DNA of 47,554 nucleotides. Origin: Escherichia coli. Its GTDB lineage: Bacteria; Pseudomonadota; Gammaproteobacteria; Enterobacterales; Enterobacteriaceae. Position numbers and translations under genes: made by a program. Below are positions 1,300-28,370 of this stretch, in pieces. The stretch is taken from the NCBI RefSeq assembly GCF_003334385.1, contig NZ_QOWN01000034.1; one strand, written 5' to 3'. A model generated the notes under the pieces. That model saw only the letters and a program-made list of their open reading frames with translations. It did not search any database and was not told the DNA's origin. The first letter of the stretch is position 1. Each line of letters begins with the position of its first letter.

Positions 1300-1387
1300 C
1301 TTTTTTAAATTGCCCCTAGATGAATGCACGGGCGGAGAGGAAATTCCCCTTCGCCCGTGTCAGTATAATTACCCGTTTATAGGGCGA

Positions 1388-3304
1388 TTATTTTTTGTCT
1401 TTGACTTCTTCAAATTCAGCGTCGACAACATCGTCATCTTTCGCGTTGTTTGCAGAAGCATCAGCACCGGCAGTCTGCTGCTGGGCATGTTGCTGCTGGG
1501 CGATTTCCATCAGTTTCTGGGAAACCTGTGCCAGCTCCTGCATTTTCGCTTCGATAGCGGCTTTGTCTTCACCTTTCAGAGCAGTTTCCAGTGCAGTCAG
1601 TGCAGACTCGATAGCAGTTTTGTCGTCAGCCGGCAGTTTGTCGCCTGCTTCTTCAACCTGCTTACGGGTGCTGTGCAGCAGATGGTCGCCCTGGTTGCGA
1701 GTCTGTACCAGCTCTTCAAACTTACGGTCAGCTTCGGCGTTAGCTTCTGCGTCGCGTACCATTTTCTGGATTTCATCTTCGTTCAGACCAGAAGACGCCT
1801 TGATGGTGATCTTCTGCTCTTTACCGCTGTTTTTATCTTTCGCGGAAACGTGCAGGATACCGTCAGCATCGATATCGAAGGTAACTTCGATCTGCGGCAT
1901 GCCGCGCGGTGCCGGGTTGATACCATCCAGGTTGAACTGACCCAGAGATTTGTTATCAGCCGCACGTTTACGTTCACCCTGCAGCACATGGATGGTTACC
2001 GCAGACTGGTTGTCTTCAGCGGTAGAGAACACCTGGCTGTGCTTGGTCGGGATAGTGGTGTTTTTCGCGATCAGCGTCGTCATCACACCGCCCATGGTTT
2101 CGATACCCAGAGACAGCGGGGTAACGTCCAGCAGCAGTACGTCTTTCACGTCACCAGTCAGAACACCACCCTGAACAGCAGCACCGATTGCTACAGCTTC
2201 GTCCGGGTTAACGTCTTTACGCGGCTCTTTACCAAAGAACTCAGCAACTTTCTTCTGAACCATTGGCATACGAGTCTGACCACCAACGAGGATAACGTCG
2301 TCGATATCAGATACGGACAGGCCAGCGTCCTGCAGTGCAACTTTCAGCGGCTCAATGGAACGGTTTACCAGATCTTCAACCAGGCTTTCCAGTTTCGCAC
2401 GAGTCACTTTGATGTTCATGTGTTTCGGACCGGTCGCATCTGCAGTGATGTACGGCAGGTTAACGTCGGTCTGCTGAGCGGAAGACAGTTCGATTTTCGC
2501 TTTTTCTGCCGCTTCTTTCAGGCGCTGCATTGCCAGCGGATCGTTGCGCAGGTCAATGCCCTGATCTTTCTTGAATTCTTCAACCAGGTAGTTGATCAGA
2601 CGGCTGTCGAAGTCTTCACCACCCAGGTGGGTATCACCGTTGGTAGCCAGAACTTCGAAGGTTTTTTCGCCGTCAACTTCGTCGATTTCGATAATAGAAA
2701 TATCGAAAGTACCACCACCCAGGTCATAAACCGCGATAGTACGGTTGCCAGTACCTTTGTCCAGACCGTAAGCCAGCGCAGCTGCGGTCGGTTCGTTGAT
2801 GATACGTTTTACTTCCAGACCAGCGATACGGCCTGCGTCTTTGGTTGCCTGACGCTGAGCATCGTTAAAGTATGCCGGTACGGTGATAACAGCTTCAGTT
2901 ACCGGTTCACCCAAGTAATCTTCAGCGGTTTTCTTCATTTTTTTCAGCACTTCAGCAGAAATCTGCGGCGGTGCCATTTTCTGGCCTTTAACTTCGACCC
3001 ATGCGTCGCCGTTATCAGCAGCAATAATTTTGAACGGCATGATGGAAACATCACGCTGTACTTCTTCGTCCTGGAAGCGGCGGCCAATCAGGCGTTTAAT
3101 CGCAAACAGGGTGTTTTGCGGGTTTGTCACTGCCTGACGTTTAGCCGGCTGACCAACCAGAGTTTCACCATCCTGGGTATAGGCAATGATAGAAGGCGTG
3201 GTGCGATCGCCTTCGGCGTTCTCCAGCACGCGAGGAGTGGTGCCATCCATAATCGCTACACAAGAGTTGGTAGTACCCAGGTCGATACCAATTATTTTAC
3301 CCAT
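1388..3304 (-). CDS. dnaK: Chaperone DnaK (Hsp70), 638 aa
   Basis: [21 protein letters not shown]... full-length Hsp70 ending EEVKDKK; 88-bp spacer to dnaJ. Confidence 0.98.
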
Positions 3305-3349: not shown

Positions 3350-3460
3350 TGTAATAGGGGCGAAACGTCTGGTTTCAACTGCCCAATTTCATTTTTTTGC
3401 AGACTCACTCACTGCGGTTGACTACTAAATGGGGTCGTAACCCACGTCATCAAGGGGGAG
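3350..3460 (-). promoter_or_regulatory. dnaK heat-shock (sigma32) promoters P1 and P2
   Basis: On the minus strand: CTTGATG -35 with CCCCATTTA -10 (plus coordinates ~3426-3454), and TTGAAA -35 with CCCCTATTA -10 (~3352-3378). Both match the sigma32 consensus CTTGAA / CCCCATnT. Confidence 0.6.
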
Positions 3461-9794: not shown

Positions 9795-9930
9795 AATGCC
9801 GGATGCGGCGTGAACGCCTTATCCGGCCTACAAAAGCATGCAGATTCAATATATTGCAGAATTCACGTAGGCCTGATAAGACGCGCCAGCGTCGCATCAG
9901 GCGCTGAATGCCGGATTGTTACCCGGCATT
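9795..9930. repeat. REP elements (BIME) between yaaA and yaaX
   Basis: GCCGGATGCGGCGTGAACGCCTTATCCGGCCTAC and inverted GTAGGCCTGATAAGACGCGCCAGCGTCGCATCAGGC palindromic units. Confidence 0.85.
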
Positions 9931-15154: not shown

Positions 15155-15192
15155 CGAAAAAAAAAGCCCGCACTGTCAGGTGCGGGCTTTTT
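15155..15192 (-). terminator. thr leader attenuator terminator
   Basis: AAAGCCCGCACCTGACAGTGCGGGCTTTTTTTTT on the minus strand, directly after the thrL stop and before thrA. Confidence 0.85.
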
Positions 15193-15211
15193 TCTGTGTT
15201 TCCTGTACGCG

Positions 15212-15280
<69 letters not shown>

Positions 15281-21123: not shown

Positions 21124-21597
21124 TTATTGCCGCCACGGCATGACAGGAACCGCGCTAATCGCGTTTTTCGGCGAACCTTCTACAACTTTGTCGGAGTAAG
21201 CCAGATAAGCGAGCGCGTTGCGTTTGGCGTCATAAAAGCGCACGACCTGTAACGACTTAAAGACCAGGGACGTGCGTTTTTTGAATACTACCTCGCCCTG
21301 AGCTTTGCCGTTTTTAATACGATCCGACAGTTCAATCGGCCCGACTTGCTGACAAGAAATAGCCGCATCGGAGGTATCTTCCGCCAGACCCAATCCCCCT
21401 TTAATACCACCTGTTTTCGCCCGGCTCACATAACAGGTGACATTTTTCACATCGGGATCGTCAAAGGCTTCCACAACAATTTTGTGATCCGGGCCGATCA
21501 TTTTAAATACGGTGTCGACCGAACCAATCTCTTCTGCATGAGCCAATGGCCCCAGCATTATCAGGCTTAAAGACAGGATCAAATGCTTGTATTTCAT
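21124..21597 (-). CDS. creA: CreA (DUF1090) periplasmic protein, 157 aa
   Basis: Signal peptide [21 protein letters not shown]; first gene of creABCD. Confidence 0.9.
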
Positions 21598-21807
21598 ATT
21601 GTTACCATTTTTATCTATTACACGAGCAATTAGTTCGTCACGGTAAATAACATATTGATTAAGAACAAAATCTCAATACTTTTATTTCCGTCAAGACCTA
21701 AAACATACTCTACTAAGAAAAAAACACTGAATGCTAAAACAGCAAAAAATGCTATTATCCAATTACCTGATGTCAGGTGCTCGTTGTTGAAAGGATGAGG
21801 ATATTTT

Positions 21808-22677
21808 ATGGATCAGGCCGGCATTATTCGCGACCTTTTAATCTGGCTGGAAGGTCATCTGGATCAGCCCCTGTCGCTCGACAATGTAGCGGCGAAAGCA
21901 GGTTATTCCAAGTGGCACTTACAGAGAATGTTTAAAGATGTCACTGGCCATGCTATTGGCGCGTATATTCGTGCTCGTCGTTTGTCGAAATCGGCGGTCG
22001 CACTACGCCTGACTGCGCGTCCGATTCTGGACATCGCGCTGCAATACCGCTTCGACTCTCAACAGACATTTACCCGCGCATTCAAGAAGCAGTTTGCCCA
22101 GACTCCTGCACTTTACCGCCGTTCTCCTGAATGGAGCGCCTTTGGTATTCGCCCGCCGCTGCGTCTGGGTGAATTCACTATGCCAGAGCATAAATTTGTC
22201 ACCCTGGAAGATACGCCGCTGATTGGTGTTACCCAGAGCTACTCCTGTTCGCTGGAGCAAATCTCTGATTTCCGCCATGAAATGCGTTATCAGTTCTGGC
22301 ACGATTTTCTCGGCAACGCGCCGACCATTCCGCCAGTGCTCTACGGCCTGAATGAAACGCGTCCGAGTCAGGATAAAGACGACGAACAAGAGGTATTCTA
22401 TACCACCGCGTTAGCCCAGGATCAGGCAGATGGTTATGTACTGACGGGGCATCCGGTGATGCTGCAGGGCGGCGAATATGTGATGTTTACCTATGAAGGT
22501 CTGGGAACCGGCGTGCAGGAGTTTATCCTGACGGTATACGGAACGTGCATGCCAATGCTCAACCTGACGCGCCGTAAAGGTCAGGATATTGAGCGATACT
22601 ACCCGGCAGAAGACGCCAAAGCGGGAGATCGCCCAATTAATCTGCGCTGTGAACTGCTGATTCCTATCCGCCGTTAA
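21808..22677 (+). CDS. rob: AraC/XylS-family right-origin-binding protein Rob, 289 aa
   Basis: MDQAGIIRDLLIWLEGHLDQPLSLDNVAAKAGYSKWHLQRMFKDVTGHAIGAYIRARRL... Confidence 0.97.
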   Translation: MDQAGIIRDLLIWLEGHLDQPLSLDNVAAKAGYSKWHLQRMFKDVTGHAIGAYIRARRLSKSAVALRLTARPILDIALQYRFDSQQTFTRAFKKQFAQTPALYRRSPEWSAFGIRPPLRLGEFTMPEHKFVTLEDTPLIGVTQSYSCSLEQISDFRHEMRYQFWHDFLGNAPTIPPVLYGLNETRPSQDKDDEQEVFYTTALAQDQADGYVLTGHPVMLQGGEYVMFTYEGLGTGVQEFILTVYGTCMPMLNLTRRKGQDIERYYPAEDAKAGDRPINLRCELLIPIRR

Positions 22678-23321
22678 CGCTGCAGCTCATCTAATGCAGG
22701 GGCGTCCAGATGCGAGATGTCCCCTGCGGTTTCAACGACCCAGCCAGACGCCAGCCACAGGCTTTCCTGATAATCCACGCGCGAAATAGAACAGTTACGC
22801 AGACGTAAGCGGCGCTCTGCCCATGCTGGTAATCCGAGAATCGTACTCACCAGGCATCCCAGTGCAATACCATGACTCACCAGCAGCGGTCGGCTTCCCT
22901 GCGGTAAGTCCCGGCAAGATTCCAGTGCCGCATTGACGCGATCGCTGAGCTCCTGCATTGACTCGCCTTCAGGAATACGCCCGTCAACGGTGCCATTGAC
23001 CAGCTGCCGACGCCAGTTCTCTTCTTCTTCGGTCAGAGAATCGATATGTCTTTTTTCCAGCACACCCATGTTTAATTCACGCAGGCGAGAATCAAAGATG
23101 ATGTCACAGCCGCAGGCCTGGGCGATGATTTCCGCCGTACGCCGGGTGCGTCCTAAATCGCTACTGATAATATGCGTAATGCCAAGCTCTTTGGCACGGG
23201 TTGCCACCTGCATCGCCTGTTGCTCACCTTTGGCGGTCAGCGGGCTGTCAGACTGGCCCTGAATACGTCGCTCGGCGTTCCACTGCGTTTCACCGTGGCG
23301 GACTAGGTATACCTGTAACAT
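22674..23321 (-). CDS. gpmB: Phosphoglycerate mutase family protein GpmB, 215 aa
   Basis: MLQVYLVRHGETQWNAERRIQGQSDSPLTAKGEQQA..., histidine phosphatase RHG motif; its 3' end overlaps the rob stop. Confidence 0.95.
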   Translation of the reverse strand: MLQVYLVRHGETQWNAERRIQGQSDSPLTAKGEQQAMQVATRAKELGITHIISSDLGRTRRTAEIIAQACGCDIIFDSRLRELNMGVLEKRHIDSLTEEEENWRRQLVNGTVDGRIPEGESMQELSDRVNAALESCRDLPQGSRPLLVSHGIALGCLVSTILGLPAWAERRLRLRNCSISRVDYQESLWLASGWVVETAGDISHLDAPALDELQR

Positions 23322-23360
23322 GCTTTTTTTCCGTATACTGCTGTAACGTTAATTTTCTGA

Positions 23361-23894
<534 letters not shown>

Positions 23895-23975
23895 GACGGA
23901 TAAGGCGTTCACGCCGCATCCGGCATTCGGTGCACGATGCCTGATGCGACGCTGCCGCGTCTTATCAGGCCTACA
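23895..23975. repeat. REP pair between yjjX and trpR
   Basis: GGATAAGGCGTTCACGCCGCATCCGGCA and GCCTGATGCGACGCTGCCGCGTCTTATCAGGCCTAC. Confidence 0.85.
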
Positions 23976-28220: not shown

Positions 28221-28370
28221 GCCGGATGCGGCGTGAACGCCTTATCCGGCCTACAAACCAAGAAATTTCAATACGTTGTGAATCTCCAGGCCTGATAAGA
28301 CGCGGTAAGCGTCGCATCAGGCATTGAGCACCGAATGCCGGATACGGCGTGAACGCCTTTTCCGGCCTAC
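28221..28370. repeat. REP cluster (three palindromic units) between ettA and nadR
   Basis: GCCGGATGCGGCGTGAACGCCTTATCCGGCCTAC, inverted AGGCCTGATAAGACGCGGTAAGCGTCGCATCAGGC, then GCCGGATACGGCGTGAACGCCTTTTCCGGCCTAC. Confidence 0.85.

What the first reader, a model, noticed from the sequence alone, without database searches (positions are those of the whole stretch)
22670..22680. rob and gpmB converge with overlapping stop codons
The rob stop (TAA, 22675-22677) and the gpmB stop (complement of 22674-22676) share the hexamer GTTAAC, so the convergent genes overlap by 4 nt with no terminator between them. The arrangement implies transcriptional interference or shared 3' processing.
Basis: seen in the sequence. 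Interest (0 to 1): 0.15.

Follow-up and report, generated by a model that had tools for sequence, protein, structure and literature searches.

The report
rob and gpmB interlocked stop codons
Two unrelated E. coli genes, rob and gpmB, meet tail to tail so that their stop codons share the four bases TTAA; this is a real, already annotated and common kind of gene overlap, conserved in 74 of the 79 Enterobacteriaceae species sampled, so it is ordinary.

Summary
gpmB/ytjC (22674-23321, -) ends in TAA on the complement of 22674-22676. Both stops sit in TTAA, inside the palindrome CGTTAACG. RefSeq annotates exactly this, also in K-12. Both proteins match their NCBIfam equivalogs end to end, so the stops are not mis-assigned.

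Four-base stop-to-stop overlaps (CTAA/TTAA/CTAG/TTAG) are a known abundant class; 58 convergent overlaps were counted in E. coli. The junction is old: 74 of 79 Enterobacteriaceae species keep it, and all four allowed tetramers occur.

There is indeed no terminator between the genes, but termination is displaced rather than missing. Published bicyclomycin data place a Rho-dependent termination region on the rob strand about 220 nt inside gpmB. Before it I find the most stable hairpin of the two-gene region (22696-22727), with some compensatory changes, followed by C-rich RNA.

The pair is already listed as a convergent "excludon" (overlapping transcription). No interference or shared 3' processing has been shown.

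Verdict: already known, low interest. The embedded hairpin is the only small new detail.

The parts
21808..22677 (+). rob (robA) coding sequence, 289 aa, stop TAA at 22675-22677
   Evidence: ORF list; RefSeq annotation; NCBIfam equivalog NF011701 matched 1-289/289
22674..23321 (-). gpmB (ytjC) coding sequence, 215 aa, stop TAA = complement of 22674-22676
   Evidence: ORF list; RefSeq annotation; NCBIfam equivalog NF002901 matched 1-215/215
22674..22677 (.). Shared tetramer TTAA that holds both stop codons (the 4-nt overlap). Position 1 is also the third base of rob's last Arg codon. Position 4 is the complement of the third base of gpmB's last Arg codon.
   Evidence: Sequence. At the 74 interlocked junctions among 79 species the tetramer is TTAA 62, CTAA 5, CTAG 5, TTAG 2
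22672..22679 (.). Palindrome CGTTAACG: both genes end in Arg (CGT) followed by TAA
   Evidence: Sequence and translations
22696..22727 (+). Stable hairpin GCAGGGG-(18 nt)-CCCCTGC, +19 to +50 after the rob stop and inside the last 18 codons of gpmB. Candidate 3'-protective stem-loop of the rob mRNA; it has no U tract.
   Evidence: In the MFE and centroid folds. -17.9 kcal/mol, the most stable 32-nt fold on the + strand in the 1514-nt two-gene region. The two third-codon-position pairs show 8 independent compensatory double changes. Pair 22698-22725 is unusual against matched nulls (p about 0.001-0.003); pair 22701-22722 is not (p 0.41)
22718..22817 (+). C-rich, G-poor stretch of the rob 3' extension (C/G 1.4-1.6); candidate rut region
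   Evidence: Composition in 80-nt windows. Only about the 90th-95th percentile of the window background
22897..22897 (+). Peak of the published Rho-dependent termination region on the rob strand (K-12 4634221, - strand), about 220 nt past the rob stop and antisense to gpmB. Resolution is coarse (800-nt comparison windows).
   Evidence: PMC7815308 supplementary file 2: -BCM 228 upstream/49 downstream, +BCM 164/177, Rho score 5.02, p 3.9e-19. Coordinate mapping checked: the window is collinear with K-12 over 21601-23500, 12 substitutions and no indels
22414..22553 (-). C-rich, G-poor stretch of the gpmB 3' extension, antisense to the rob 3' coding region (C/G 1.7-1.9). Inferred rut region for gpmB.
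   Evidence: Composition, 95th-99th percentile of the background. No experimental 3' end or Rho region is listed for this strand

Best explanation
This is the known, annotated tail-to-tail junction of two unrelated housekeeping genes of E. coli. One is rob, an AraC/XylS-type regulator. The other is gpmB/ytjC, a histidine-phosphatase-family enzyme. Their stop codons interlock in the tetramer TTAA. The junction is ancestral to the family Enterobacteriaceae and is held in place by double purifying selection. Of the 12 possible single-base changes in TTAA, only T1>C and A4>G keep both stops, and both are synonymous in the partner's last Arg codon; these are exactly the variants seen in nature. Loss of either stop would add 30 codons to Rob or 24 to GpmB. 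Because there is no spacer, each transcript must end inside the partner gene. For rob (shown by published data) this is Rho-dependent termination about 220 nt into the antisense of gpmB. The sequence before that point has the layout described for Rho-dependent 3' ends: a stable stem-loop without a U tract (22696-22727), then C-rich, G-poor RNA (inferred role). For gpmB the same is inferred from a C-rich stretch 120-260 nt into the antisense of rob. Overlapping transcription is therefore an unavoidable by-product of the compact junction. Whether it regulates anything is not known.
For: The stops and the 4-nt overlap are confirmed and match RefSeq in two strains. The stretch 21700-23400 is present in 5421 of 5426 complete E. 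coli genomes. Both proteins match their equivalog models end to end. The class is known: the tetramers CTAA/TTAA/CTAG/TTAG, and 58 convergent overlaps in E. coli (PMC2174442). Of 79 Enterobacteriaceae species, 74 keep the interlocked tetramer, with all four allowed forms. No terminator-like site lies downstream of either stop, and the supplementary text held for the TERMITe paper has no entry matching this region's coordinates, ytjC, gpmB or b4396. A Rho termination region lies at K-12 4634221 (-), antisense to ytjC, with Rho score 5.02 and p 3.9e-19. The hairpin is the most stable local fold in the region and shows 8 independent compensatory double changes at synonymous sites. C exceeds G downstream of it. 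Dar and Sorek describe exactly this layout for Rho-dependent transcripts (abstract of PMC6061677). ytjC-rob is catalogued as overlapping transcription. Extension lengths on stop loss are 30 and 24 codons.
Against: No curated Term-seq 3' end lies at the base of the hairpin, or anywhere in K-12 4634200-4635099, in the lists of Adams et al.. The protective role of the hairpin is therefore unproven. The folds of the 131-nt flanks are not significantly more stable than shuffles (z -1.0 and -1.4). The second covarying pair is not significant under a matched null (p 0.41), and disruptive changes are about as frequent as compensatory ones. The C/G ratio of the rob extension is only around the 90th-95th percentile of the background. 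Nothing is known experimentally about where gpmB transcripts end. The Rho region is mapped only coarsely. Conservation was sampled only in relatives whose Rob is at least 75% identical to the query.
Confidence: 0.8

Rival explanations
1. Functional convergent excludon. The overlapping 3' parts of the rob and gpmB transcripts are selected for reciprocal control. High rob transcription lowers gpmB expression, and vice versa, by polymerase collision and/or RNase III cleavage of the RNA duplex.
For: ytjC-rob is in the published E. coli 'excludome'. The rob-strand transcript runs at least about 220 nt antisense into gpmB before Rho stops it. The junction is conserved across 74 of 79 species.
Against: The listing rests on RNA-seq coverage only; no reciprocal expression or RNase III dependence has been shown for this pair. 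Conservation is fully explained by the double constraint on the two stops. Species with the stops separated by a 4-nt duplication or a 137-bp ERIC-like insert keep both genes intact. Third-codon positions at the 3' end of rob are as variable as elsewhere (entropy 1.3-1.55 against a mean of 1.18). In the p19 study, captured dsRNA read density was on average 37.9-fold higher in 5' overlaps of divergent operons than in 3' overlaps of convergent ones, and the cluster reported near here is the rob-creA 5' overlap, not rob-ytjC.
Confidence: 0.2
2. The palindromic hairpin at 22696-22727 is a bidirectional element. It forms in both nascent RNAs and positions head-on polymerase collisions, or acts as a weak two-way terminator, at the gene boundary.
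For: The stem folds on both strands (-17.9 kcal/mol on +, -14.4 on -) and pairs about equally well across species on either strand. Wang et al. report that a nascent-RNA stem-loop is needed for collisions at defined positions between convergent genes (abstract).
Against: It has no flanking A and U tracts, and the terminator scan does not flag it. It lies 19 nt upstream of the gpmB stop, so stopping gpmB transcription there would give mRNAs without a stop codon. No 3' end is reported at it on either strand. Rho dependence of the rob-strand read-through is measured further downstream.
Confidence: 0.1
3. Annotation artefact or chance: one of the two stops is mis-assigned and the overlap is not real.
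For: None found.
Against: A stop codon is fixed by the reading frame, and both frames are confirmed by end-to-end equivalog matches. Both are also confirmed by full-length orthologues: gpmB at 81-99% and Rob at 75-99% identity in 72 species with the same junction.
Confidence: 0.01

Closest known systems
Four-base stop-to-stop overlaps of convergent prokaryotic genes (tetramers CTAA, TTAA, CTAG, TTAG; Lillo and Krakauer 2007, PMC2174442)
   Same: Exactly this arrangement: two stops on opposite strands within TTAA. E. coli was reported to have 58 convergent overlaps, and the overlap-length distribution of convergent pairs jumps at length 4 because of these tetramers.
   Different: Nothing in kind. 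Here the depth of conservation (74 of 79 Enterobacteriaceae species, all four tetramers) and the natural ways of breaking the junction (tetramer duplication, ERIC-like insertion) were documented for this one pair.
Convergent excludons (overlapping 3' transcription of neighbouring genes; ExcludonFinder, PMC12288877)
   Same: ytjC-rob is itself listed among the 165 convergent excludons of E. coli MG1655.
   Different: The defining functional consequence, mutually exclusive expression through interference or RNase III, has not been shown for this pair. Only the overlap in coverage has been shown.
Rho-dependent transcript ends with a protective stem-loop followed by a rut site (Dar and Sorek 2018, PMC6061677)
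   Same: Bicyclomycin-sensitive read-through on the rob strand. A stable stem-loop without a U tract lies shortly after the stop, with C-rich RNA just downstream.
   Different: The whole apparatus lies inside the coding sequence of the opposing gene, so it is built from gpmB codons. The expected steady-state 3' end at the foot of the stem is not in the one curated list I could read.
REP/BIME-filled convergent junctions, as at the neighbouring pairs in this window
   Same: Same genomic situation: two genes tail to tail.
   Different: yjjX/trpR (84-nt gap), ettA/nadR and yjjW/yjjV have spacers occupied by REP-type elements (Rfam naRNA4 hits at 23894-23971, 28289-28367 and 41403-42087). rob/gpmB has no spacer at all. 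It is the only overlapping pair among the 8 convergent pairs of the window (the other gaps are 34 to 516 nt in the annotated strain).

Membership tests
Four-base convergent stop-stop overlap | Both reading frames are real genes that end at the stated stops | tested here: met
   NCBIfam equivalogs matched end to end; RefSeq annotation in two strains; full-length orthologues in 72 species
Four-base convergent stop-stop overlap | The shared tetramer is one of CTAA, TTAA, CTAG, TTAG | tested here: met
   TTAA at 22674-22677; all four forms occur among the orthologous junctions
Convergent excludon | Transcripts of the two genes overlap | not testable with these tools
   Sequence alone forces an overlap if both genes are transcribed. 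The published RNA-seq survey lists ytjC-rob, and the Rho region 220 nt inside gpmB implies it for the rob strand
Convergent excludon | Mutually exclusive expression, or RNase III-dependent processing of the overlap | not testable with these tools
   No data found for this pair. The p19 dsRNA table seen lists the rob-creA 5' overlap, not rob-ytjC
Rho-dependent terminator with protective stem-loop | Read-through downstream of the gene rises when Rho is inhibited | tested here: met
   Looked up in published data: K-12 4634221 (-), downstream/upstream coverage 49/228 without and 177/164 with bicyclomycin, p 3.9e-19
Rho-dependent terminator with protective stem-loop | C-rich, G-poor untranslated RNA downstream of the stop (rut) | tested here: inconclusive
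   C/G is 1.3-1.6 over +1..+140 and 1.4-1.5 over +121..+260. That is only the 90th-95th percentile of the background and is typical of the antisense of any coding region
Rho-dependent terminator with protective stem-loop | A stable stem-loop without a U tract, with the steady-state 3' end at its foot | tested here: inconclusive
   The stem-loop is present, stable and partly covarying. No 3' end at K-12 about 4634381-4634391 appears in the curated Term-seq lists of PMC7815308. The tables of Dar and Sorek are not held
Bidirectional intrinsic terminator | A G+C-rich hairpin flanked by an A tract upstream and a U tract downstream | tested here: not met
   No terminator-like site at or near the junction on either strand. 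The hairpin is followed by GGUUUCAAC on the + strand and AUUAGAUGAG on the - strand

The most novel reading that the evidence does not exclude
The hairpin at 22696-22727 is written into the last 18 codons of gpmB and kept by compensatory synonymous changes. It may be a selected RNA element that sets the 3' end and stability of the rob mRNA. That would be a regulator's 3' UTR signal encoded inside the opposing gene. Alternatively, together with the interlocked stops, it may couple Rob and GpmB expression as a true excludon.
Probability: 0.15. Interest if true: 0.3.

Novelty: already known. Interest (0 to 1): 0.1.

Why it matters
It matters little on its own. The overlap is in the standard annotation of E. 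coli K-12. It belongs to a well-described class of 4-base stop-stop overlaps, and the pair is already listed as transcriptionally overlapping.

Its modest value is as a clean worked example. It shows how a spacer-free convergent junction is maintained: two of twelve point changes are allowed, and exactly those occur. It shows how such a junction can be undone in nature, by tetramer duplication or by insertion of an ERIC-like repeat. It also shows where termination goes when there is no intergenic DNA, namely Rho-dependent termination inside the partner gene. If the embedded hairpin proves to protect the rob mRNA, it would be one more case of an RNA signal constraining synonymous sites of an opposing gene.

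Tried and rejected
Several literature look-ups gave nothing.
- Supplementary tables for 3' ends or Rho sites are not held as text for Dar and Sorek 2018, Nadiras 2018, the 3'-UTR valve paper, the multi-study 3'-seq preprint, or ExcludonFinder.
- Those of the transcriptional-interference paper and of TERMITe hold no entry for rob, ytjC or these coordinates.
- Ju et al. 2019 is not held.
- A search for rob + gpmB + convergent gave only unrelated papers.

Several leads turned out to be artefacts or dead ends.
- I took P0001 (319 aa) for a natural read-through of the rob stop, because the predicted extension is 30 codons. It is an internal duplication instead.
- My script first scored L006 and L047 as non-overlapping. 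Inspection shows the normal tetramer, with a frameshift elsewhere in gpmB, possibly an assembly error.
- The protein search for more distant Rob relatives listed only Enterobacteriaceae, down to 74% identity.

Several tests came out negative or weak.
- Whole-flank folding gave no significant z-scores.
- A test for extra synonymous constraint at the two 3' ends found none for rob and only a slight dip for gpmB.
- A G-U versus A-C count, meant to show which strand the hairpin serves, was not decisive.
- GC3 drift was considered as an explanation for the A-T to G-C double changes. It cannot explain the G-C to A-T and transversion double changes, but it weakens the statistics.

Full report
**Observation**

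The window reads GCCGTTAACG at 22670-22679. The mechanical ORF list gives a 289-aa frame at 21808..22677 on the + strand and a 215-aa frame at 22674..23321 on the - strand. The rob stop is TAA at 22675-22677. The gpmB stop is TAA on the complement of 22674-22676. The two coding sequences share 22674-22677 (TTAA). The hexamer GTTAAC lies at 22673-22678, and the palindrome extends to CGTTAACG (22672-22679), because both proteins end in Arg encoded by CGT. Every statement of fact in the finding is correct.

**Identity of the genes**

The stretch 21700-23400 is present at 95-100% identity in 5421 of 5426 complete E. coli genomes.
- In a strain identical over that stretch, RefSeq annotates robA at 1609-2478 (+) and gpmB at 2475-3122 (-) of the locus, the same 4-nt overlap.
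- In K-12 MG1655, ytjC is at 4633797-4634444 (+) and rob at 4634441-4635310 (-).
- The window is the reverse complement of K-12 here. It is collinear over 21601-23500, with 12 substitutions and no indels, so window position = 21808 + (4635310 - K-12 position).
- Both proteins match NCBIfam equivalog models from first to last residue: RobA 1-289/289 at 589 bits, GpmB 1-215/215 at 456 bits.

**Is the overlap unusual?**

No. Lillo and Krakauer (PMC2174442) describe a jump at length 4 in the overlap-length distribution of convergent pairs. They attribute it to the four tetramers that can hold two opposed stops (CTAA, TTAA, CTAG, TTAG), and they count 58 convergent overlaps in E. coli. Within this window, using the annotation of a nearly identical strain, there are eight convergent pairs. 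Seven have spacers of 34 to 516 nt, and rob/gpmB is the only overlapping one. Three of those spacers carry REP-type elements detected by Rfam as naRNA4, and a fourth (yaaA/yaaX) carries an ES036 hit at 9832-9874.

**Conservation**

A scan of one genome per species found Rob relatives, and the best 80 loci were kept. All are Enterobacteriaceae with Rob 75-99% identical to the query. For 79 of them both gene ends could be read.
- 74 have the interlocked tetramer: TTAA 62, CTAA 5, CTAG 5, TTAG 2.
- In 72 of these both reading frames are intact. In L006 and L047 gpmB has a frameshift elsewhere, possibly an assembly error.
- Three species (two Buttiauxella and Pluralibacter gergoviae) have the tetramer duplicated (for example TTAACTAA), so the stops abut with no overlap.
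- Two Buttiauxella species carry a roughly 137-bp insert at the junction.

The insert matches a dispersed repeat with a median of 9 copies per E. coli genome. From my memory of the ERIC consensus and primers, I take it to be an ERIC element.

The pattern of tetramers follows directly from the code. Of the 12 single-base changes to TTAA, only T1>C and A4>G keep both stops. Each of these is synonymous in the other gene's last Arg codon (CGT/CGC). Loss of the rob stop would add 30 codons, and loss of the gpmB stop 24. The junction is therefore old and is held by purifying selection on both genes at once. The five species with separated stops show that the overlap itself is not required.

**Where transcription ends**

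The consensus scan finds no terminator-like site on the - strand of 21500-23600. It finds none on the + strand between the rob stop and 23544. The supplementary text held for the TERMITe paper has no entry matching this region's coordinates, ytjC, gpmB or b4396.

The curated Term-seq lists of Adams et al. (PMC7815308) contain no 3' end in K-12 4634200-4635099 on either strand. Their bicyclomycin experiment, however, lists a Rho termination region at 4634221 on the - strand. It is classed as antisense to ytjC. Coverage is 228 upstream and 49 downstream without the drug, and 164 and 177 with it, giving a Rho score of 5.02 and p 3.9e-19. That position is window 22897, about 220 nt past the rob stop, with coarse resolution (800-nt comparison windows). 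So the rob-strand transcript runs into the antisense of gpmB and is stopped there by Rho. This step is shown by published data.

**What lies between the stop and that region**

Folding the rob 3' extension gives a hairpin at 22696-22727 (GCAGGGG, 18-nt loop region, CCCCTGC) in both the minimum-energy and centroid structures.
- It is the most stable 32-nt fold on the + strand in the whole 1514-nt two-gene region: -17.9 kcal/mol, against a mean of -5.1 and a first percentile of -11.5.
- It is kept in the 79 aligned sequences (the window plus 78 loci), with a mean of -16.0 kcal/mol.
- Five of the seven outer pairs never vary, because they are first and second codon positions of gpmB (Ala-Gly-Asp ... 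Ala-Pro-Ala). That says nothing either way.

The two pairs formed by third codon positions do vary. Pair 22698-22725 is A-U 54, G-C 10, C-G 3, G-U 3, other 6. Pair 22701-22722 is G-C 54, G-U 5, A-U 4, C-G 2, U-G 1, other 10.
- Against a null of other third-position column pairs in the same alignment, the first pair is unusual: p about 0.001, or 0.003 when matched for base and frequency. The second is not (p 0.41).
- Parsimony on a neighbour-joining tree gives about 8 independent compensatory double changes over the two pairs, 5 changes to G-U, and about 9 disruptive changes.

I read this as suggestive, not conclusive, evidence that pairing is selected. The hairpin has no U tract after it. Downstream, C exceeds G: C/G is 1.4-1.6 over +41..+140 and 1.4-1.5 over +121..+260. 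That is only the 90th-95th percentile of the window background and is usual for the antisense of coding DNA.

This order matches what Dar and Sorek describe for Rho-dependent transcripts (abstract of PMC6061677): stop, then a stable stem-loop without uridines, then C-rich RNA, then a Rho-dependent termination zone. There the stem-loop protects the trimmed 3' end from PNPase and RNase II. The assignment of that role here is an inference. The expected steady-state end at the foot of the stem is not in the one list I could read.

**The gpmB strand**

For gpmB there are no data. Its 3' extension, antisense to the end of rob, has a markedly C-rich stretch at +121..+260 (window 22414-22553, C/G 1.7-1.9, 95th-99th percentile). 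There is no conserved hairpin just after its stop, and third-codon positions of rob there vary freely (entropy 1.3-1.55 against a mean of 1.18). Rho-dependent termination is the most likely mechanism, but it is inferred.

Overlapping transcription is real and already catalogued. ExcludonFinder lists ytjC-rob among 165 convergent excludons of MG1655, found in at least half of 58 RNA-seq samples (PMC12288877). That is a statement about coverage, not about regulation. I found no evidence of reciprocal expression, RNase III processing or a shared 3' event for this pair. In the p19 dsRNA study, captured dsRNA read density was on average 37.9-fold higher in 5' overlaps of divergent operons than in 3' overlaps of convergent ones, and the cluster reported near here is the rob-creA 5' overlap.

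A collision-based role for the hairpin (Wang et al.) is possible. It is unattractive, because the stem lies upstream of the gpmB stop, so stopping gpmB transcription there would yield mRNAs without a stop codon.

**Verdict**

The finding is accurate and already known, and it is an ordinary member of a common class. The most likely mechanism is a compact, doubly constrained junction with Rho-dependent termination displaced into the partner gene. The embedded, partly covarying hairpin is the only small new observation, and it is testable with simple experiments. Interest is low.

Noticed in passing
window 21994-22016 (+), inside rob: Adams et al. report a very strong ORF-internal Term-seq 3' end in rob at K-12 4635102 (-), which is window 22016, 208 nt into the gene. 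Scores are 80405 in LB OD 0.4 and 108834 in LB OD 2.0, and the end is not Rho-dependent (Rho score 0.65). It falls exactly on the 3' base of a 7-bp hairpin (21994-22016) that is 84% paired across 65 sequences (the window plus 64 species loci), with 16 double-change cells. This could be a stable 5' fragment of the rob mRNA or a pause/processing site.
   Followed up: partly
window 23247-23372 (gpmB 5' end and the gpmB-yjjX gap): The first ~25 codons of gpmB show very low third-position variation across 64 species (entropy 0.34-0.63 against a gene mean of 1.13). The divergent gap to yjjX is only 51 bp. This suggests promoter or other signals embedded in the gpmB 5' coding region.
   Followed up: no
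L054:3371-3519 and L066:3371-3508 (Buttiauxella brennerae, Buttiauxella sp. B2): A roughly 137-bp repeat is inserted exactly at the rob/gpmB junction, with the gene ends duplicated so that both reading frames stay intact. The insert matches a dispersed repeat present at a median of 9 copies per E. coli genome. From memory of its consensus it looks like an ERIC element.
   Followed up: partly
L060, L062 (Buttiauxella gaviniae, B. noackiae) and L081 (Pluralibacter gergoviae), locus positions 3367-3374: The stop tetramer is duplicated (TTAACTAA, TTAATTAA, CTAGTTAA), so the two stops abut with zero spacer instead of overlapping. This could be a footprint of insertion and excision, or a slippage event.
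   Followed up: no
window 23894-23971, 28289-28367, 41403-42087: Rfam naRNA4 (REP-type) elements fill the neighbouring convergent gaps yjjX/trpR and ettA/nadR. They also form an array of 8 tandem 101-nt units between yjjW and yjjV. The window has three more units (303 bp) than strain 214-4, so the array varies in copy number between strains.
   Followed up: partly
window about 21598-21807 (creA-rob divergent region): A published p19 pull-down lists an abundant RNase III-derived dsRNA cluster (S-382, 'rob, creA', 5' overlap). The divergent 5' ends of rob and creA transcripts therefore overlap. The two promoter-like hits of the scan, at 21776-21749 and 21676-21649 (- strand), lie in this region.
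   Followed up: no
window 1300-1377 (-), 9832-9874 (+), 15157-15276 (-): Known RNA families at gathering score: tpke11 in the dnaK-dnaJ spacer, ES036 in the yaaA/yaaX convergent gap, and the thr operon leader.
   Followed up: no
window 20422, about 40501-40529, and about 42963-42966: Same-strand overlaps in the annotation of the nearly identical strain: creC/creB share 1 nt, yjjI/yjjW overlap by 29 nt, and yjjU/yjjV by 4 nt. The yjjU/yjjV overlap is at 42660-42663 in strain 214-4 coordinates, shifted by +303 in the window.
   Followed up: no
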